From: Escherichia phage TrudiRoth
Strand: one strand, 5' to 3'
Length of the DNA stretch: 64,000 nt
Sequence record: MZ501109
Within the stretch, counting starts at the first letter, position 1. Every line of letters starts with the position of its first letter. A program made the translations under genes and the position numbers. This document shows, one piece after another, positions 29,035 to 48,357 of this stretch. The notes beneath the pieces were generated by a model. That model searched no databases and was not told the DNA's origin. It saw nothing but the letters and a program-made list of their open reading frames with translations.

Positions 29035-29304
29035 ATGTCTATTCTTTTATCTGCTTTAGAAGCAAAACAAAATACTATTGCTAGCATTAAAAAGGAAGTA
29101 ATTGACCTAGAATCACTTATTGCCGTAGAGATTGACAAAGCTATTAAAGATAAAGAATTTAATTGTCACATCCAGGGATTAACTGAATACTCAGAAAACG
29201 CTAGAAATAGCGTCATGCAAAAACTTAGCAAACTAGGTTATGTTGTAGAAGCTAAGTATGAACAGCGTGAAGGTTTTTGGCTTGAAATTGATTGGAGCAA
29301 ATAA
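29035..29304 (+). CDS. hypothetical protein (89 aa)
   Basis: ORF track. Confidence 0.5.
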   Translation: MSILLSALEAKQNTIASIKKEVIDLESLIAVEIDKAIKDKEFNCHIQGLTEYSENARNSVMQKLSKLGYVVEAKYEQREGFWLEIDWSK

Positions 29305-29780
29305 TGTCGGTTTTCCACATATATACAGATGGTGCATGTAAAGGCAATCCTGGTTTAGGTGCGTGGGGATTCGTTGTCTATAATGATAATGATGATCGTA
29401 TTGGCTCTAAATCTGGCTTCAGCCCTAAAACTACTAATAACGAAATGGAACTTACTGCAATTGTAGAAGTTCTTCGTTGGTCTACTAAGAAAGATAATCG
29501 TCCAGTAATTATCTACACTGATTCTGCTTACTGCAAAAATGGTATGGAAAGCTGGATGTGGTCTTGGCAGAAGAAAGGCTGGAAGAAGGGAGATGGTGAA
29601 ACCCCTCTTAATCTAGAACTCTGGCAAGAAGCATTTAAACTAACCCAACAGTACATTAACTTCCATGATACCAATCCAACCTTTGTTAAGGTTAAAGGTC
29701 ACTCAGGTATTCGTGGTAATGAAGAAGTTGATGCTCTATGCAATACTGTAATTACTGAGCAAGAACTTGCTGAGATGTAA
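29304..29780 (+). CDS. rnhA: ribonuclease H
   Basis: MSVFHIYTDGACKGNPGLGAWG and TDSAY, VKGHSG...NEEVD; start may instead be 29292. Confidence 0.85.
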   Translation: MSVFHIYTDGACKGNPGLGAWGFVVYNDNDDRIGSKSGFSPKTTNNEMELTAIVEVLRWSTKKDNRPVIIYTDSAYCKNGMESWMWSWQKKGWKKGDGETPLNLELWQEAFKLTQQYINFHDTNPTFVKVKGHSGIRGNEEVDALCNTVITEQELAEM

Positions 29781-29800
29781 TAAATAAATTAAAAATTCAC

Positions 29801-29829
29801 TTGCTTAAAGCCCTCGAATTTAGTATAAT
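29801..29829 (+). promoter_or_regulatory. early-type sigma70 promoter (TTGCTT-17-TATAAT)
   Basis: attcacTTGCTTaaagccctcgaatttagTATAATattcg. Confidence 0.6.
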
Positions 29830-29856
29830 ATTCGTATTGAAAGTGAGGAGGGCTTT

Positions 29857-30135
29857 ATGCGAATTTACAACTCAAATTCATTAGGATTTAAACCTTTGAG
29901 AAAACGCGCACAATCTCCGCGTCAGATCAGAAAGGCAAATATTGGTGAGCCAGAAACTAGGCTTCCACCACCTCCGGAGCAACGTCTAGTTTACCTAGAT
30001 GAAGAGTTAGCCGAAAGGGAACGCAAAGCTCAAGAAGAAATTGAGCGTAAGAAACTGTGTACTGCTCCTGCGTATAACAAGGGTGGTTATCAATACGTTT
30101 CCAGTGAGGAACAAGCTAAGATGATCGGCAGATAA
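29857..30135 (+). CDS. hypothetical protein (92 aa)
   Basis: ORF track, promoter and RBS gaggaggg. Confidence 0.55.
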   Translation: MRIYNSNSLGFKPLRKRAQSPRQIRKANIGEPETRLPPPPEQRLVYLDEELAERERKAQEEIERKKLCTAPAYNKGGYQYVSSEEQAKMIGR

Positions 30136-30151
30136 TTTTTAAAAAATTCAT

Positions 30152-30180
30152 TTGCTAAACGCTTCAAAATTTAGTATAAT
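30152..30180 (+). promoter_or_regulatory. early-type sigma70 promoter (TTGCTA-17-TATAAT)
   Basis: attcatTTGCTAaacgcttcaaaatttagTATAAT. Confidence 0.6.
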
Positions 30181-30218
30181 ATATCTCATAAATTGATCAA
30201 CAAAAAGGAAAACAAATA

Positions 30219-30734
30219 ATGGCTAAGCAGAAAAACGCAAAAACTCAGGCAGCTCCGGCAGTTAAAACTTTCGCTCAGACCGAAGCCAATCGTAAGGCTC
30301 GTCTGGAACGTCATCTGCGTAAGCATCCTAGCGATGCTCAGGCTCAGACTGCTCTGAAGTCTCCGGTTCCGATTCGTCAGAAGCCGAAGGCTAAGAACTC
30401 CACTCGCGCAACTGCTAAGCAGGTTGTGTTCATCAAGGGTGAAGGTCATAAGTCTGTACCGGTAACTCTGAGCTTTAACGGAGGTGCTGAGATGTTCGCC
30501 CGCAACGGTATGGCTCTGAAAGATTACGAAAAAGCAGTCAATCAGAAGCGTAAGCCAATGGCTGACGTAATGCGTGAATCCCGTGGACAGTTTGGCTCCG
30601 TTAAACCGAATATCTTCGGGGTAGAGTATAGCCGTGACAACGTTCGCGCTCTGTGCTATGGTATCGGTATTAAGTTTACTGGTGCTTCTGATCGTAAATC
30701 CACTAAACCTGCTCGTAAGCGTAAAGCGAAGTAA
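30219..30734 (+). CDS. basic, apparently highly expressed protein (171 aa)
   Basis: Host-like high-expression codon bias, promoter, RBS; preferred over the overlapping minus-strand ORF. Confidence 0.6.
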   Translation: MAKQKNAKTQAAPAVKTFAQTEANRKARLERHLRKHPSDAQAQTALKSPVPIRQKPKAKNSTRATAKQVVFIKGEGHKSVPVTLSFNGGAEMFARNGMALKDYEKAVNQKRKPMADVMRESRGQFGSVKPNIFGVEYSRDNVRALCYGIGIKFTGASDRKSTKPARKRKAK

Positions 30735-30795
30735 TGATTGATGGGGCGAAAGCCCCATATACTAACTCTTTCTCTGACTAATTAAGGATATTTTT

Positions 30796-31011
30796 ATGTT
30801 CTCTAAGAAACCACGTTCCGTTACTGAAATCGTTGCTTCCTTTACCACTATTACTGATGAACTTCAAGCTCGTATTGAAGCTGACCAGAAAACTGCTGCT
30901 GATATTCAGAAACAGCAGGAAGAACTCGCTCTGAAACTGGCTGAAACCAATAAGAGTGAAAAATCTGCTCAAACTATTAAGGAAAATATCCTTAAACTGC
31001 TGGGCAAGTAA
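30796..31011 (+). CDS. hypothetical protein (71 aa)
   Basis: ORF track. Confidence 0.5.
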   Translation: MFSKKPRSVTEIVASFTTITDELQARIEADQKTAADIQKQQEELALKLAETNKSEKSAQTIKENILKLLGK

Positions 31012-31020
31012 TTTAAATCA

Positions 31021-31043
31021 GGGGGCGAAAGCCCCTCTTATTT
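31021..31043 (+). terminator. terminator-like GNRA hairpin
   Basis: gggggc-gaaa-gcccct followed by cttattt. Confidence 0.5.
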
Positions 31044-31052
31044 GGAGAAACT

Positions 31053-31265
31053 ATGCGTAACTTCGTTGCAAAGAATGATTTTAACCGTGCTAGCACTCAC
31101 AAGTCTGCTAGAGACTACACTCGTCTTTCTAAACATGAGCTTCTAGAAGAAATCATGGAAGAAAACTGGGATGTTAGTGAAAATGGAACAGACCTGTTTG
31201 AAGAAGGGGAACTTCCTCTGAAAGACCCCAAACAGTGGGAGTCTATTAAAGAGACAGCTCTTTAA
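31053..31265 (+). CDS. hypothetical protein (70 aa)
   Basis: ORF track. Confidence 0.5.
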   Translation: MRNFVAKNDFNRASTHKSARDYTRLSKHELLEEIMEENWDVSENGTDLFEEGELPLKDPKQWESIKETAL

Positions 31266-31295
31266 TAGTTTTCTACAACAATAAAGGACATAATT

Positions 31296-31997
31296 ATGAA
31301 ATTCAAGCCCTTTGGTATGCTGGACATTGAATCTCTAGGTACTCCAGGAAATTGCGGTACTACTCATATTGCAATGCCTTCTTTCGCTTTTGTAGCGATG
31401 CACGGAATTGATAAAGATCCTGATCTGGTATTCGTTACTCTAGACGTTCAAGATCAGCTTAATGCGGGTGCTAAGGTAACTGCCTCTACTATTGCATTCT
31501 GGATGGATCAAGCTAAAAACAGTCCATCTGCGCTCCATATTATGGAGGCTCTAAATGGTCGTAATCCTAAACTGATTGCCTTCCGTGATGGTAAGCATCA
31601 CTGCACTAATGACGTAGGCTCTAATTATGCTGCCTTCTCTATGGCTCAGAACATTATGGAATTGTCTCTAGGAGATAATGCTCTGTATTACGGCAATGGC
31701 CCAGAGTTTGATATGACTATCTACTCTGCAAATACGTTCCATGCCGGAACCCATGAAGAAGTAGTTCCGTGGAAATTCTGGAACTTAGGTAATGTTCGAT
31801 CTTTCCGTAATCAATGGATGCAAGCTGGTTATAGTTATAAAGATCTAGAAGCCGAAGGTGCTAGCTGGGCAAAAGCTAAAATGGAAAAGATGGATACCAT
31901 TCGTTATGGAATCTATCCAGTTAAACATGATCCAGCATTCGATGCTTTAGTTGAAAGTTATTGTGTAGCCATCATGATCGAAAAAATCAAAATTTGA
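31296..31997 (+). CDS. putative DEDDh-type 3'-5' exonuclease-like protein (233 aa)
   Basis: Candidate Exo I MLDIESLG, Exo II-like GNGPEFDM, Exo III-like KHDPAFDAL; inference. Confidence 0.45.
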   Translation: MKFKPFGMLDIESLGTPGNCGTTHIAMPSFAFVAMHGIDKDPDLVFVTLDVQDQLNAGAKVTASTIAFWMDQAKNSPSALHIMEALNGRNPKLIAFRDGKHHCTNDVGSNYAAFSMAQNIMELSLGDNALYYGNGPEFDMTIYSANTFHAGTHEEVVPWKFWNLGNVRSFRNQWMQAGYSYKDLEAEGASWAKAKMEKMDTIRYGIYPVKHDPAFDALVESYCVAIMIEKIKI

Positions 31998-31998
31998 T

Positions 31999-32027
31999 TT
32001 GCTTTCAGCTCCAAAATTCTGTATAAT
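31999..32027 (+). promoter_or_regulatory. early-type sigma70 promoter (TTGCTT-17-TATAAT)
   Basis: gatTTGCTTtcagctccaaaattctgTATAATatattcataaatttgagaga. Confidence 0.6.
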
Positions 32028-32067
32028 ATATTCATAAATTTGAGAGAACAACAAAAGGAAAATAATT

Positions 32068-32250
32068 ATGCCAGTATCTAAAAACGTCCGTAAAAATGGT
32101 AAAGTAGCAAAACGTAACCTGGGTCTGCGTCGTATGGCTGAGCGTCAGTCCGGCATCCAGAAAATCTTTAATGTACTGAATCGCACCAACCCGAATATTG
32201 ATAACAGTTCTGATACTGTTCTGCGCACTCTGCTCGCAATCGGTCTGTAA
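32068..32250 (+). CDS. small basic protein (60 aa)
   Basis: ORF track, promoter. Confidence 0.5.
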   Translation: MPVSKNVRKNGKVAKRNLGLRRMAERQSGIQKIFNVLNRTNPNIDNSSDTVLRTLLAIGL

Positions 32251-32304
32251 TAGACCGTTTTTAAAACAAGTTCAAATCTCAAACTTCATATAAGGAAGCA
32301 AATA

Positions 32305-32943
32305 ATGACTACTCGTATCTCTAAAACTCGTGCTCTGGCAACTATCAAGTCTCTGGAAGCTAAAATCCGTAAAGCTACTGAACAACAGCTTTTGATTGCT
32401 GTTGGTGAAGGTAAAGACAAGAATCAAGTTGTCGTTGGTGCTGCAATCGAAGTAGATGCTCTGTCTACTCGTATTAAAACTGATTTCCAGTCTCTGCTGG
32501 ATATGATGACCCAGCGTGATCATCTGAAAGCAGCGCTGATCAAGAGCAATGCTGAAACTGTTGTAGAGATCGGTTCCCGCTCTATGACTGTTGCGGAAGC
32601 AATCGAAGCTAAGCGTTCTATGGAACTCAAAGCTCAGTTGCTGGCTAACATGCGTAAGCAGTTCCATGCTGCTACTGTTAAGTTTAACACTCAAAAGGCT
32701 CAGTTTGATGCCAAGTATGAGCGTTTGCAGGATACCATGGCTACCCGTGACAAGAAGACTTCCGAGGATGAAGTTAAGATGCAGCTTAACCTGCTGGAAC
32801 TCAAGAACACTCCGTTCCTGATCGATCCGCTGGAGCTGGAAAAGCTGATCAAGCAACACGACGAAGAGTACCAGGACTTTGCAACCAACGTTGACTTTGT
32901 TCTGTCTGAGTCCAACGCCTCTACTTTTATCGAAGTAGAGTAA
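32305..32943 (+). CDS. hypothetical, apparently highly expressed coiled-coil protein (212 aa)
   Basis: Host-like codon bias; overlapping antisense ORFs judged shadows. Confidence 0.6.
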   Translation: MTTRISKTRALATIKSLEAKIRKATEQQLLIAVGEGKDKNQVVVGAAIEVDALSTRIKTDFQSLLDMMTQRDHLKAALIKSNAETVVEIGSRSMTVAEAIEAKRSMELKAQLLANMRKQFHAATVKFNTQKAQFDAKYERLQDTMATRDKKTSEDEVKMQLNLLELKNTPFLIDPLELEKLIKQHDEEYQDFATNVDFVLSESNASTFIEVE

Positions 32944-40797: not shown

Positions 40798-40874
40798 GGG
40801 GGTGTAATCGAATTGGCATAGGTACTGGACTTAAAATTCAGGTTTTGTGGGTTCGAATCCCACCACCCCTACCA
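40798..40874 (+). tRNA. tRNA with UAA anticodon (Leu-type) but short variable arm; D-stem poorly defined
   Basis: Acceptor gggggtg/cacccct, anticodon arm ctgga-cuUAAaa-ttcag, T-arm gtgggTTCGAATcccac, A73, CCA. Confidence 0.45.
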
Positions 40875-46251: not shown

Positions 46252-46585
46252 ATTTATATAAATTGATGCGAAAATAGCTGCCTAGATACCAGGTGTATGA
46301 CGTCTACACTAGCAGAGCTACCGAAAAAGAGATCCTCAGGATAAACGTCGTAGCAAAATTAGTCTGGTATCCATTAATTTAGTTCACTAAGGTATTAGCT
46401 CGACCTAGGACTGGCTGCCAAAAAGCACGATCCCTACGATTTGGGAGAAGTTCTAGATTAGTCCACTAGATTCAGCGGCAACTGAATAGTGTATCGGGTT
46501 TGTGAAGAGCAGCTATTCTCTACTGGCTAATGTCTGAGGTTAGTACGCACACCGAGCTAATAGCCTTAGTAAACTTAAAGAATTT

Positions 46586-46661
46586 GGGCGAATAGTGTCA
46601 GCGGGAGCACACCAGACTTGCAAGTCTGGTAGGGAGGGTTCGAGTCTCTCTTTGTCCACCA
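46586..46661 (+). tRNA. non-canonical tRNA (GCA-containing anticodon arm; loop of 8 or 6 nt)
   Basis: Acceptor gggcgaa/tttgtcc, D-arm gtgt-cagcggga-gcac, anticodon arm is a perfect 18-nt palindrome ccagacttgcaagtctgg, T-arm gagggTTCGAGTctctc, CCA. Confidence 0.45.
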
Positions 46662-46676
46662 AATTAAAAAGAATGC

Positions 46677-46753
46677 GCGCGATTGACGGAATAGGTATAC
46701 GTGTCAGCCTTAGAAGTTGAATTTTGAGGGTTCGAATCCCTTGTCGCGCACCA
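46677..46753 (+). tRNA. tRNA with UAG anticodon (Leu-type) but short variable arm
   Basis: Perfect acceptor gcgcgat/gtcgcgc, anticodon arm tcagc-cuUAGaa-gttga, T-arm gagggTTCGAATccctt, A73, CCA. Confidence 0.5.
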
Positions 46754-47223: not shown

Positions 47224-47739
47224 ATGCTAACACAACAAGAATTAAAATCCGTGTTGTTATATAAACCAGATACTGGAGAGTTTTTCTGGAAATATAGATC
47301 TGATTTAGATAGTCAATGGAATAGTAAATATGCTGGAACTAGGGCAGGATTTATTAATGAACTAGGCTATTGGAAGATAACTCTAGGAAATACTAGCTGG
47401 TTAGCACATCGTCTAGCATTCTTATACATGACTGGGGAAATACCAGATCTAATTGACCACAAGGATCAAGATAAGTCCAATACTAAATGGGATAACTTAC
47501 GAATAGCCACTGTATCACAGAATCAGGCTAATGCTAAATTAAGGGTAGATAATACCTCTGGGTACAAAAATGTAACTTGGCATAAGCAAAGAAATAAGTG
47601 GAAAGTAGAAGTACGTAAAGATGGCAAACTCCATTATGGTGGACTTTTTACAGAACTAGATAAAGCTGTAAATAAAGCTAATAATCTTAGACGTGAGTTA
47701 TTCGGGGAATTTGCAGTATATGAAGAGTTTATGGGGTAG
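47224..47739 (+). CDS. HNH-AP2 homing endonuclease (paralog); 3' end overlaps tRNA-Ser
   Basis: HRLAFLYMTGEIPDLIDHKDQDKSNTKWDNLRIATVSQNQAN and AP2-like SGYKNVTWHKQRNKWKVEVRKDGK. Confidence 0.75.
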   Translation: MLTQQELKSVLLYKPDTGEFFWKYRSDLDSQWNSKYAGTRAGFINELGYWKITLGNTSWLAHRLAFLYMTGEIPDLIDHKDQDKSNTKWDNLRIATVSQNQANAKLRVDNTSGYKNVTWHKQRNKWKVEVRKDGKLHYGGLFTELDKAVNKANNLRRELFGEFAVYEEFMG

Positions 47740-47829
47740 GTCAATCCAACGGCTGGCGCTGGACTCCGACTTGAAATCGGTTGATCGTAGTGATACGGTG
47801 TAAGGGTTCGATCCCCTTACCTACCTCCA
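47735..47829 (+). tRNA. tRNA-Ser (anticodon UGA), long variable arm
   Basis: Perfect acceptor ggtaggt/acctacc, D-stem tcca/tgga, anticodon arm ccga-cuUGAaa-tcgg, T-arm aagggTTCGATCccctt, CCA. Confidence 0.7.
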
Positions 47830-47849: not shown

Positions 47850-48023
47850 ATGAGCAAAACAGCTACTGTAACAATGAAGGATGGTACAAAATTTAAAGCA
47901 TGTCTTCATGAAACAGATAATGGATGGAAGGCTTATTTGCCACACCTAGATTCCACTGGGTATGGAATGACCCAACGTGAAGCTATTGTTGATGCTTTAA
48001 ATGAGGCTTCCGCTGGTTTATAA
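47850..48023 (+). CDS. small ORF (57 aa), below ORF-track threshold
   Basis: Own translation MSKTATVTMKDGTKFKACLHETDNGWKAY...; RBS taaggaatcc. Confidence 0.35.
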   Translation: MSKTATVTMKDGTKFKACLHETDNGWKAYLPHLDSTGYGMTQREAIVDALNEASAGL

Positions 48024-48029
48024 AAATTC

Positions 48030-48160
48030 TTGGAATATGCCGGAATTGGTAGACGGGACTGCCGAATAGGTTTACTAGGAACATCCACTCCTAGAAATAT
48101 ACCTTAAAAGCGGTTGAGTTAAATGGTATAACTCATGAAGGTTCAAGTCCTTCTATTCCT
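48030..48160 (+). tRNA. tRNA-Leu(UAA)-like gene (type II) with ~40-nt insertion in the anticodon arm; 131 nt, no encoded CCA
   Basis: Acceptor tggaata/tattcct (6 of 7 bp), UG at 8-9, Leu-type D-arm ccg-GAATTGGTAGA-cgg, stem actgc(48057-61)/gcggt(48109-13) separated by 47 nt ending in cuUAAaa, 6-bp variable hairpin, T-arm gaaggTTCAAGTccttc. Confidence 0.4.
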
Positions 48161-48282
48161 TGATACATCAATGGCTCAAAGTGTAACGGTGCTATTTGAT
48201 GCTCTTGGCAAGACTTCCCCGACATGCGTTCGGGAGTAAGCTGCTAAGACTAGAGTAGAAGAGTTTCAACAAGACAACGATA

Positions 48283-48357
48283 GCTCTTAAAGCATTGCTG
48301 GCGATGCAGTTGCCTTGTAAGCATCTGAACCGGGTTCGATTCCTAGTGGGAGCACCA
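48283..48357 (+). tRNA. tRNA-Thr (anticodon UGU)
   Basis: Acceptor gctctta/tgggagc, D-stem gcat/atgc, anticodon arm gttgc-cuUGUaa-gcatc, T-arm ccgggTTCGATTcctag, CCA. Confidence 0.6.

What the first reader, a model, noticed from the sequence alone, without database searches (positions are those of the whole stretch)
48030..48160. tRNA-Leu(UAA)-like gene interrupted by a ~40-nt insertion in the anticodon arm
Every type-II Leu element is present by hand fold (6/7-bp acceptor, UG at 8-9, D-loop GAATTGGTAGA, 6-bp variable hairpin, perfect T-arm), but the anticodon-stem strands actgc (48057-61) and gcggt (48109-13) are 47 nt apart. The intervening sequence ends in cuUAAaa and contains its own hairpin ctagga-acatccac-tcctag. 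It is too short for a group I intron and no CCA is encoded, so it may be a small intervening element, an extended-arm tRNA-like RNA, or an inactivated gene. A type-I UAA tRNA exists at 40798.
Basis: seen in the sequence. Interest (0 to 1): 0.65.

Follow-up and report, generated by a model that had tools for sequence, protein, structure and literature searches.

The report
Phage T5 "RNA1" tRNA-like RNA
This is the T5-like phage gene for "RNA1", an already catalogued stable RNA built like a leucine tRNA but with a long conserved hairpin replacing the anticodon loop; it is neither a split tRNA gene nor a dead one, and its function is still unknown.

Summary

The element is the ortholog of rna1 (T5s03). 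The GenBank records of phages T5, BF23 and Salmonella phage 5 annotate it as "RNA1, tRNA-like stable RNA with unknown functions" (144-145 nt). It lies between tRNA-Ser(UGA)/ORF T5.063 and RNAI.

About 490 phage records carry it, with the insert in every row examined. All seven helices, including two inside the insert, are supported by compensatory changes: 95% of cells are paired and 13 pairs covary.

The anticodon-like "cuUAAaa" exists only in the T5 sequence class. Orthologs read as Phe(aaa) or Val(aac), with different "intron" positions. RNA1 lacks the CCA that all 24 real tRNA genes in the window encode. It has a U·U at 1:72 and a closed, extended terminal helix.

It is therefore a non-decoding, unspliced RNA derived from tRNA-Leu, with an invariant apical loop ACAUCCAC. 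The most likely mechanism, which is inferred, is that the tRNA body provides processing and stability and displays the hairpin as a binding module. The feature is already known, so interest is modest. Other phages carry independently expanded tRNA-Leu-like RNAs.

The parts
48029..48172 (+). Whole RNA1 gene, as delimited by the T5 annotation (rna1/T5s03, 144 nt) transferred to the window.
   Evidence: T5 L001 1742-1885 is annotated misc_RNA rna1. The window aligns at 92-99% identity. RNAI starts at 48173.
48031..48161 (+). tRNA-like core (tRNA positions 1-73), 131 nt.
   Evidence: ARAGORN -i call. CM R1 scores it 150.9 bits. MFE fold.
48031..48037 (+). Terminal (acceptor) helix, 5' strand TGGAATA. 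It pairs with 48154-48160. U·U at 1:72. C48029:G48162 can extend the helix across a tandem U·U.
   Evidence: helix 1 has 4 pairs with compensatory changes; the 9:149 C-G pair. Read directly from alignment A2.
48040..48056 (+). D arm: 3-bp stem CCG/CGG with the tRNA-Leu-type loop GAATTGGTAGA (A14, A15, G18, G19 invariant).
   Evidence: invariant columns. CM R1 ranks the tRNA-Leu genes next best.
48058..48062 (+). 5' strand (ACTGC) of the anticodon-stem equivalent. It pairs with GCGGT at 48110-48114.
   Evidence: helix 3 is 99% paired, with 3 of 5 pairs showing compensatory changes.
48063..48109 (+). Expansion that replaces the anticodon loop. It comprises an A-rich 5x5 internal loop, stem 2 (AGGT 48068-71 / ACCT 48101-04), a second internal loop and the apical hairpin.
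   Evidence: helices 4 and 5 have 5 pairs with compensatory changes between them.
48075..48094 (+). Apical hairpin CTAGGA/TCCTAG with the 8-nt loop ACATCCAC (48081-48088). The loop is invariant in all homologs except one T5 record (ACATCCGC).
48110..48114 (+). 3' strand (GCGGT) of the anticodon-stem equivalent.
48116..48134 (+). Long variable arm GAGTTA-AATGGTA-TAACTC (type II tRNA feature). The loop AAUGGU is nearly invariant.
   Evidence: helix 6 is 100% paired, and one of its pairs is seen as A-U, U-A and C-G.
48137..48153 (+). T arm GAAGG-TTCAAGT-CCTTC.
   Evidence: The only terminator-like hit is this arm.
48154..48160 (+). 3' strand of the terminal helix (TATTCCT).
48161..48172 (+). U73 followed by GATACATCAAT. 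No CCA is encoded. This tail runs up to the first base of RNAI.
   Evidence: all 24 tRNA genes of the window encode CCA and this element does not..

Best explanation
The element is the ortholog of bacteriophage T5 rna1 ('RNA1, tRNA-like stable RNA with unknown functions'). It is a small RNA of about 131-144 nt that descends from a phage tRNA-Leu gene. It has kept the acceptor-like helix, D arm, long variable arm and T arm, that is, the whole L-shaped core and elbow. Its 7-nt anticodon loop has been replaced by a conserved arm of about 47 nt: internal loop, 4-bp stem, internal loop, then a 6-bp hairpin capped by the invariant loop ACAUCCAC. It is not spliced and does not decode.

Likely mechanism:
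- Shown: it lies in the co-directional tRNA/ORF cluster with no strong promoter-like or terminator-like site next to it, it folds as stated, and it is under selection for that fold.
- Taken from the database annotation: it is a 144-145 nt RNA (called stable in the T5 record).
- Inferred, roughly 40% confidence: the tRNA body works as a processing and stability chassis. RNase P and 3' nucleases would excise it, and elbow-directed enzymes would recognise it, much as engineered 'tRNA scaffolds' do. The chassis displays the apical hairpin or loop as a binding module for a host or phage factor that is still unknown.

The closed 9-13 bp terminal helix, U73, U1·U72 and the missing CCA all argue that the T5-type RNA is not aminoacylated.
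For: Identity:
- 92-99% identity and conserved gene order with T5, BF23 and Salmonella phage 5, where the stretch is annotated misc_RNA rna1, 'tRNA-like (stable) RNA with unknown functions', followed by rnaI.

Structure:
- The MFE fold gives the cloverleaf with a long arm.
- RNAalifold recovers six of the seven helices, with 14 compensatory pairs.
- For the hand-drawn structure, 95.4% of cells are paired, 13 pairs have changes on both sides, and 0 of 500 shuffles reach that. Slid controls give 40-51% paired and at most 3 such pairs.

Leu ancestry:
- CM R1 scores the window's two tRNA-Leu genes 37.5 and 35.5 bits, against 19 bits or less for other tRNAs.
- The D loop is of the tRNA-Leu type: the same D-arm motif occurs in ordinary phage tRNA-Leu genes (L065, L070, L077).

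Not a decoder and not an intron:
- The anticodon-like loop is not conserved. ARAGORN -i gives taa, aaa or aac with different insert positions.
- The insert is present in every row examined of about 490 phage records.
- There is no CCA, whereas 24 of 24 tRNA genes in the window have one.
- The terminal helix is extended.

Other:
- It is dispensable in the laboratory: the viable T5-123 deletion 29191-32442 spans rna1 at 30501-30644 (PMC11464382; coordinates).
Against: - No expression data could be examined here.
- The chassis-plus-payload function is an inference from anatomy. No partner was identified.
- The complement of the apical loop is not enriched in the window.
- In the T5 class a perfectly canonical loop CUUAAAA abuts the 3' stem strand, which a purely structural model does not require.
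- D and T stems never vary, so they are untested by covariation.
Confidence: 0.8

Rival explanations
1. It is a functional tRNA-Leu(UAA) gene carrying a novel 40-nt intron. The intron is removed after transcription to give a 91-nt type II tRNA, which receives CCA and decodes UUA/UUG.
For: - ARAGORN in intron mode calls exactly this.
- In the T5 class the residual loop CUUAAAA is canonical.
- The body has all tRNA core nucleotides.
Against: - Orthologs give Phe(aaa) or Val(aac), with the insert at positions 33-39. No conserved junction or anticodon exists.
- The insertion point is 5' of position 32, not a known intron site.
- 40 nt is far below the size of a group I intron, and no Intron_gpI hit appears at E<=10.
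- The insert's own helices covary and its loop is invariant.
- No insert-free allele appeared in any row examined.
- U73 and U1·U72 conflict with E. coli tRNA-Leu identity, which requires A73 (established knowledge).
- There is no CCA, unlike all 24 tRNA genes here.
- The annotated stable species is 144 nt.
Confidence: 0.04
2. It is a decaying tRNA-Leu pseudogene that acquired an insertion and has no function.
For: - Default tRNA finders do not call it.
- There is a mismatch at 1:72 and no CCA.
- T5 mutants lacking it are viable.
Against: - It is conserved in about 490 phage records from Markadamsvirinae, Sugarlandvirus and Hongcheonvirus.
- 13 base pairs are maintained by double substitutions and the loops are invariant.
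- It is intact in this window, although the neighbouring RNAI copy has lost its 3' strand and RNAIII is absent.
Confidence: 0.03
3. It is an aminoacylatable or synthetase-binding tRNA-Leu mimic. After 3' trimming and CCA addition it would be charged by LeuRS, which ignores the anticodon arm, or would titrate LeuRS. It would then act off the ribosome, for example as a LeuRS sponge or as a donor for aminoacyl-tRNA transferases.
For: - The Leu-type tertiary core is retained: U8, A14, A15, G18, G19 and U48 are invariant.
- E. coli LeuRS does not read the anticodon (established knowledge).
- The Klebsiella-phage forms, and the unrelated expanded tRNA-Leu-like RNAs of large phages, have A73.
Against: - The E. 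coli, Salmonella and Pectobacterium phage forms have U73 and U·U at 1:72.
- The 3' end is buried in a 9-13 bp helix.
- CCA is not encoded, in contrast to every tRNA gene here.
Confidence: 0.1
4. It is only a processing punctuation mark: a tRNA-shaped RNase P / RNase Z site that separates the upstream ORF mRNA from RNAI, with no function as a free RNA.
For: - It sits between ORF T5.063 and RNAI, inside the co-directional tRNA/ORF cluster with no strong promoter-like or terminator-like site nearby.
- Its annotated 3' end coincides with the 5' end of RNAI.
Against: - A punctuation role needs only the acceptor/T-arm half. It does not explain the invariant apical loop, the covarying long arm or the invariant variable loop.
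- The RNA1 gene is kept even where RNAI does not follow (L016) and where tRNA-Ser directly precedes it (AKFV33).
Confidence: 0.08

Closest known systems
Bacteriophage T5 RNA1 (gene rna1, locus T5s03, NC_005859 30501-30644; also annotated in BF23 AJ604530 and Salmonella phage 5 AJ604531)
   Same: Orthologous. Sequence identity is 92-99%. The neighbours are the same (tRNA-Ser(UGA), ORF T5.063, RNAI), and so are the length and fold.
   Different: There are a few substitutions, mostly compensatory or wobble: the variable-arm pair U-A versus A-U, and the acceptor pair U-A versus U·G. In the window the downstream RNAI copy is 3'-truncated, and RNAIII and tRNA-His are replaced by tRNA-Thr.
Bacterial/phage type II tRNA-Leu
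   Same: - The D arm (3-bp stem with loop GAAUUGGUAGA), A15/U48, long variable arm, T arm and 5-bp anticodon stem are all present.
- The CM built from RNA1 scores tRNA-Leu genes best among tRNAs.
   Different: - A 47-nt structured arm stands in place of the 7-nt anticodon loop.
- U73 instead of A73.
- U·U at 1:72.
- No CCA.
- The terminal helix is extended.
- It scores below the Rfam tRNA threshold.
Phage T4 species 1 RNA (rnaC, 139 nt) and species 2 RNA (rnaD), stable RNAs of unknown function at the end of the T4 tRNA cluster
   Same: - They occupy the same genomic niche (a tRNA cluster) and have a similar size.
- The rnaC MFE fold has a terminal helix, a canonical T arm (UUCGAAU), a variable-like hairpin and a long arm of about 60 nt.
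- Their function is likewise unknown.
   Different: - There is no detectable sequence or CM similarity: no R1 hit in L056.
- rnaC shows no D arm in the MFE fold.
- The resemblance is one of architecture, not a demonstrated homology.
Engineered 'tRNA scaffold' RNAs (Ponchon & Dardel approach: a payload RNA inserted in place of the anticodon loop of a tRNA for stable expression in E. coli); cited from memory
   Same: The design is the same: an intact tRNA body with a foreign structured insert closed by the anticodon stem. This design is known to give correct processing and high stability.
   Different: The scaffolds are artificial and end in CCA. Here the chassis is natural and Leu-derived, it has a closed terminus, and the payload's function is unknown.
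tmRNA tRNA-like domain and bacterial YrlA (Y RNA-like) tRNA mimics
   Same: These are tRNA-shaped modules joined to a long helix and used for non-decoding purposes.
   Different: - tmRNA lacks a D stem, has pseudoknots and a tag ORF, and ends in CCA.
- YrlA has the Ro-binding stem at its termini.
- Neither ARAGORN's tmRNA search nor Rfam matches the element.

Membership tests
T5 RNA1 (rna1) family of Demerecviridae | Sequence homology to the annotated rna1 of T5, BF23 and Salmonella phage 5. | tested here: met
   92-99% identity over the whole element. The annotation was read.
T5 RNA1 (rna1) family of Demerecviridae | Position in the tRNA region: after tRNA-Ser(UGA)/ORF T5.063 and immediately before RNAI. 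| tested here: met
   Window order is tRNA-Ser(UGA) 47735-47829, ORF 47850-48023, RNA1 48029-48172, then the RNAI homolog from 48173.
T5 RNA1 (rna1) family of Demerecviridae | tRNA-like fold with an expanded anticodon arm and the apical loop ACAUCCAC. | tested here: met
T5 RNA1 (rna1) family of Demerecviridae | Accumulates as a stable RNA of about 144 nt in infected cells. | not testable with these tools
   Only the GenBank note 'stable RNA' is available. The primary papers are not held.
Canonical tRNA-Leu (decoding tRNA) | A 7-nt anticodon loop with U33 and a Leu anticodon closing the anticodon stem, conserved among orthologs. | tested here: not met
   47-48 nt lie between the stem strands. 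The residual loop is canonical only in the T5 class. Orthologs are read as aaa or aac.
Canonical tRNA-Leu (decoding tRNA) | A73 discriminator and a single-stranded 3' CCA (encoded in all tRNA genes of this phage). | tested here: not met
   U73 is followed by GAUA, whereas 24 of 24 tRNA genes in the window encode CCA.
Canonical tRNA-Leu (decoding tRNA) | Scores above threshold with general tRNA models. | tested here: not met
   Rfam RF00005 gives 23.9 bits against a gathering score of 29, and only for the 3' part. Default ARAGORN makes no call.
Canonical tRNA-Leu (decoding tRNA) | Leu-type D arm and tertiary core (U8, A14, A15-U48, G18G19, T-loop). | tested here: met
   These are invariant columns in A2 and A4. 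The tRNA-Leu genes are the best non-self CM hits.
Intron-containing tRNA gene (bacterial group I intron, or archaeal/eukaryal BHB intron) | Group I catalytic core (about 200 nt or more), or a bulge-helix-bulge motif at the canonical 37/38 site. | tested here: not met
   The insert is 40 nt and lies 5' of position 32. No intron family matches at E<=10.
Intron-containing tRNA gene (bacterial group I intron, or archaeal/eukaryal BHB intron) | Intron-less alleles in relatives, and the same mature anticodon in orthologs. | tested here: not met
   Every row examined of about 490 records retains the insert. The inferred anticodons differ.
Intron-containing tRNA gene (bacterial group I intron, or archaeal/eukaryal BHB intron) | A spliced mature RNA is observed. 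| not testable with these tools
   No RNA-seq data were available.
tmRNA | tRNA-like domain plus a tag-peptide ORF and pseudoknots, ending in CCA. | tested here: not met
   ARAGORN's tmRNA search found nothing. There is no Rfam tmRNA hit.
T4 species 1 RNA (rnaC) | Sequence or profile similarity to rnaC. | tested here: not met
   CM R1 gave no hit in the T4 tRNA region L056 at E<=10. Only the architecture is similar.

The most novel reading that the evidence does not exclude
RNA1 may be one instance of an unrecognised, recurrent phage device. In this reading, a tRNA-Leu chassis carries an expanded anticodon arm as a payload. The Leu chassis would be favoured because LeuRS and the tRNA-processing and elbow-binding enzymes do not inspect the anticodon arm.

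Independently expanded tRNA-Leu-like RNAs were seen in two other places:
- a family of about 158 nt in the tRNA arrays of phage contigs, most of 80-330 kb (10 loci, supported by covariation);
- locus L062.

None of these is in Rfam. Such RNAs could act as decoys or adaptors for host factors that target tRNAs, such as anticodon nucleases of defence systems, LeuRS or modification enzymes.
Probability: 0.2. Interest if true: 0.7.

Novelty: already known. Interest (0 to 1): 0.3.

Why it matters
The gene itself is not new. It has been annotated as RNA1 in T5, BF23 and Salmonella phage 5.

What remains open is what this RNA and its neighbours (RNAI, RNAIII, RNA2H) do. This analysis shows three things:
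- RNA1 is under strong selection for a precise fold.
- It is widespread in enterobacterial T5-like phages.
- It is not a cryptic tRNA.

T5 tRNAs were recently shown to neutralise tRNA-cleaving defence systems (PARIS and retron Eco7). A non-decoding tRNA-Leu mimic with an invariant displayed loop is therefore a reasonable candidate for a further host-interaction or counter-defence RNA. Similar expanded tRNA-Leu-like RNAs in unrelated large phages suggest the design may be general.

For genome annotation there is a practical lesson. Intron-tolerant tRNA finders will miscall this element as an intron-containing tRNA-Leu, Phe or Val.

Tried and rejected
- **Intron or spliced tRNA.** Rejected because the anticodon and junction are not conserved among orthologs, no insert-free allele appeared in any row examined, no intron family matched, and the insert covaries.
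- **Pseudogene.** Rejected on conservation and covariation.
- **Antisense target of the apical loop.** The complement GTGGATGT, and a 12-mer with up to 2 mismatches, show no meaningful enrichment in the window. Led nowhere.
- **Host counterpart.** blastn of the element against 5,426 complete E. coli genomes found nothing, even at E<=10.
- **Remote homologs by loose patterns.** GAACATCCNCTC...GAAGGTTC gave only T5-like phages plus chance hits L033-L040. The metagenome scan gave only T5-like contigs. GGTANACGGGGGTGTGG added only unrelated sequences.
- **Literature.** Five full-text searches and look-ups found no open paper describing RNA1. Glukhov et al. 2018 is not held.
- **Promoter and terminator scan.** Nothing beyond chance. 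The single terminator-like hit is the T arm.
- **Upstream 57-aa ORF.** No Pfam family matched.
- **Kissing interaction between the variable loop (UGG) and the apical loop (CCA).** Only 3 bp are possible by inspection, so it was not pursued.

Full report
**Observation.**
The stretch 48031-48161 reads as follows:
- acceptor 5' strand TGGAATA;
- TG at positions 8-9;
- D arm CCG-GAATTGGTAGA-CGG, then G26;
- ACTGC (48058-62), then 47 nt, then GCGGT (48110-14);
- variable arm GAGTTA-AATGGTA-TAACTC;
- T arm GAAGG-TTCAAGT-CCTTC;
- acceptor 3' strand TATTCCT, then T, then GATACATCAAT.

Its coordinates for the two anticodon-stem strands are one base low.

Default ARAGORN finds 23 tRNAs in the window but nothing here. 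Rfam gives only a sub-threshold tRNA match to the 3' part, 23.9 bits against a gathering score of 29. RNAfold on the single sequence recovers the cloverleaf with a long arm, -37.3 kcal/mol and z = -2.6.

**Identity.**
The window is from a T5-like phage. Megablast of 47700-48500 hits 446 phage records. In the T5 RefSeq record the orthologous stretch is annotated misc_RNA rna1 (T5s03), "RNA1, tRNA-like stable RNA with unknown functions", 144 nt. It is followed directly by rnaI (107 nt), rnaIII and tRNA-His, and preceded by tRNA-Ser(UGA) and ORF T5.063.

The BF23 and Salmonella phage 5 tRNA-region records carry the same annotation. The independent T5 record AY587007 leaves it unannotated. Transferred to the window, RNA1 is 48029-48172 and the RNAI homolog starts at 48173. 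The feature is therefore already catalogued, with its function stated as unknown.

**Distribution.**
blastn with the 161-nt element finds it in 490 phage records at 71-99% identity, from phages of Escherichia, Salmonella, Klebsiella, Citrobacter, Yersinia and Pectobacterium. A reciprocal search with the Klebsiella-phage copy gives 488. The taxa fetched include Tequintavirus, Sugarlandvirus and Hongcheonvirus, that is, at least three Demerecviridae lineages.

Pattern scans of IMG/VR and of metagenome contigs returned only T5-like contigs. No match exists in 5,426 complete E. coli genomes. Every row examined retains the insert, so no insert-free allele was seen.

**Structure and selection.**
I aligned 26 distinct homologs as alignment A2. 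They fall into four sequence classes: the T5/window class, an AKFV33 class, an Eps7/Klebsiella class and the Pectobacterium phage.

RNAalifold independently predicts the terminal helix, the anticodon-stem equivalent, two helices inside the insert, the variable arm and the T arm. Fourteen pairs are kept through double substitutions.

For the explicit seven-helix structure:
- 95.4% of 936 cells are standard pairs;
- 13 of 36 pairs show changes on both sides (84 cells);
- no shuffle out of 500 reaches these values;
- sliding the 3' partners by 1-3 columns drops pairing to 40-51% and leaves at most 3 such pairs.

Examples of compensatory change:
- acceptor GGAAT/ATTCC versus GAAGT/ACTTC;
- anticodon stem ACTGC/GCGGT versus GCTTC/GAGGC;
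- stem 2 AGGT/ACCT versus GAGT/ACTC;
- apical stem CTAGGA/TCCTAG versus TAGGGA/TCCCTG versus GCAGA/TCTGC;
- one variable-arm pair seen as U-A, A-U and C-G.

The unpaired parts are the most conserved. These are the D loop, the T loop, the variable loop AAUGGU, the A-rich internal loops and the apical loop ACAUCCAC. The apical loop is invariant except in one T5 record, which has ACAUCCGC. D and T stems never vary, so covariation says nothing about them.

**Why it is not an interrupted tRNA.**
1. The anticodon-like heptamer CUUAAAA exists only in the T5/window class. The other classes have CAUAAA, CGAAAAC or GACGG before the 3' stem strand. On 33 homologs, ARAGORN's intron mode assigns Leu(taa), Phe(aaa) or Val(aac), with the insert placed at positions 33, 35-37 or 39. 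Orthologs therefore share no junction and no anticodon. A34 anticodons of that kind are not used by bacterial tRNAs (established knowledge).
2. The insert is 40 nt and lies 5' of position 32. It matches no intron family.
3. All 24 genuine tRNA genes of the window encode CCA, whereas this element has U73 followed by GAUA.
4. Position 1:72 is U·U. A conserved C(-2):G74 pair closes a 9-bp terminal helix across a tandem U·U. In Klebsiella phages the terminal helix is about 13 bp. This is unlike a tRNA acceptor end.
5. The database describes a 144-145 nt RNA1 (stable in the T5 record), i.e. with the insert retained.

The pseudogene reading fails on the covariation and on the invariant loops.

**Ancestry.**
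I built a covariance model from 17 RNA1 sequences (R1). It scores the window element at 150.9 bits. The next best hits in the window are the two tRNA-Leu genes, at 37.5 and 35.5 bits. All other tRNAs score 19 bits or less. The D arm, with a 3-bp stem and the loop GAAUUGGUAGA, together with A15/U48 and the long variable arm, are tRNA-Leu characters. RNA1 is a derivative of a phage tRNA-Leu.

**Mechanism.**
What is shown is the fold, its selection, and its position in a co-directional tRNA/ORF cluster with no strong promoter-like or terminator-like site of its own.

The published viable T5-123 deletion (29191-32442) spans rna1 (30501-30644). In that study, fragments other than 31885-32870 did not rescue infection of PARIS+ cells. 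RNA1 is therefore dispensable in laboratory E. coli and is not the PARIS suppressor (PMC11464382; coordinates).

What is inferred is the role of the two parts. The intact elbow and terminal helix would let host RNase P, 3' nucleases and elbow-binding enzymes excise and stabilise the RNA, as in engineered tRNA scaffolds. The long arm would display the invariant loop as the functional site. I put about 40% on this chassis-plus-payload reading. Smaller weights go to a LeuRS-directed mimic (LeuRS ignores the anticodon arm, but U73, U·U and the buried 3' end argue against charging) and to a mere processing punctuation mark. A search for an antisense target of the loop within the window was negative.

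**Comparison.**
The closest known entity is T5 RNA1 itself, and all testable membership criteria are met. The best analog elsewhere is phage T4 species 1 RNA (rnaC, 139 nt), at the end of the T4 tRNA cluster and also of unknown function. Its MFE fold shows a terminal helix, a canonical T arm, a variable-like hairpin and a long arm. There is no profile similarity, since R1 has no hit in the T4 region. The element is not a tmRNA and matches no curated Rfam family.

**Wider context, found in passing.**
Scanning IMG/VR with the RNA1 D-arm motif (TGCCGGAANNGGTANACGGG) retrieved three kinds of sequence:
- ordinary phage tRNA-Leu genes;
- a family of about 158 nt (10 loci, most on contigs of 80-330 kb and lying in tRNA arrays wherever flanking sequence was scanned) with a perfect 7-bp acceptor in most of the copies resolved, usually A73, no CCA, and an expansion of about 95 nt where the anticodon loop would be;
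- a distinct 122-nt RNA, L062, with a 42-nt expansion and a T arm identical to that of Klebsiella-phage RNA1.

The 158-nt family shows 14 compensatory pairs. It has no Rfam match and no consistent intron reading. R1 detects these RNAs only through the shared Leu frame, at 33-50 bits. They look like independent expansions rather than RNA1 orthologs. Because the retrieval was forced through the D-arm motif, the true size of this class is unknown.

**Verdict.**
The element is the known T5-family RNA1, a non-decoding and unspliced RNA derived from tRNA-Leu. Novelty is 'already known'. Interest is modest at 0.3. It comes from the unsolved function and from the hint that expanded tRNA-Leu chassis recur in phages.

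Noticed in passing
L058, L060, L067 (883-1040), L068 (8205-8362), L069, L074, L075, L078 (3644-3801), L079 (13879-14054), L080: A family of tRNA-Leu-like RNAs of about 158 nt on phage contigs, most of 80-330 kb, lying in tRNA arrays wherever flanking sequence was scanned. Features: Leu-type D arm, a perfect 7-bp acceptor in most of the copies resolved, usually A73, no CCA, and an expansion of about 95 nt (GGUGUGG...CCACC) where the anticodon loop would be. It has 14 compensatory pairs and no Rfam family.
   Followed up: partly
L062, minus strand 615-736: A 122-nt tRNA-Leu-like RNA on a 276-kb phage contig. It has acceptor GGCCCCG/CGGGGCC, A73 and a 42-nt hairpin-containing expansion in the anticodon arm. 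Its T arm is identical to that of Klebsiella-phage RNA1.
   Followed up: partly
window 48173-48282: The RNAI homolog matches only nt 1-95 of T5's 107-nt RNAI. It lacks the 3' strand (CUGAGAGCCGCCA) that closes the RNAI terminal helix. RNAIII and tRNA-His are absent and tRNA-Thr (48283-48357) follows instead.
   Followed up: partly
window 47735-47829: A tRNA-Ser(UGA) gene with encoded CCA is missed by default ARAGORN. It is found only through Rfam's tRNA-Sec model (38.3 bits) and by homology to T5 tRNAS1.
   Followed up: partly
window 46586-46661: ARAGORN labels this 'tRNA-??? (tgca)'. Read by hand, the loop is CUUGCAA, i.e. tRNA-Ala(UGC), the ortholog of T5 tRNAA.
   Followed up: partly
window 40798-40874 and 46677-46753; also L070, L077: The phage tRNA-Leu genes are 77 nt long with a short variable loop (type-I-like), unlike bacterial type II tRNA-Leu. 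T5 itself has an 85-nt Leu(UAG). Similar short tRNA-Leu genes occur in unrelated phage contigs.
   Followed up: no
window 46393-46565: Ortholog of T5 RNA2H, another 'stable RNA with unknown functions'. The first 113 nt are 98% identical and the terminal helix UAUUAGCUCG/CGAGCUAAUA is retained, but the internal 3' segment differs.
   Followed up: partly
window 47224-47739: A 171-aa ORF with an HNH_3 endonuclease domain (E = 3.8e-13) sits between the two tRNA-Ser genes. In T5 those two genes are only 7 nt apart, so this looks like a homing-endonuclease insertion.
   Followed up: partly
L069 4887-5350 (-) and L079 11234-11702 (+): GOLLD RNAs (Rfam RF02032, 163-168 bits) lie in the same tRNA arrays as the 158-nt tRNA-Leu-like RNAs.
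   Followed up: no
L056 2909-3047 (-) (T4 rnaC): The MFE fold of T4 species 1 RNA (z = -4.6) shows a terminal helix, a canonical T arm, a variable-like hairpin and a long arm of about 60 nt. This architecture is analogous to T5 RNA1.
   Followed up: partly
L004-L006 (Klebsiella Sugarlandvirus phages), about 190-720 of each locus: A non-coding stretch of about 540 nt follows tRNA-Val. It contains the RNA1 homolog, with a 13-bp terminal helix and A73, and further conserved sequence resembling the start of RNAI. Annotators have placed short hypothetical ORFs over it.
   Followed up: no
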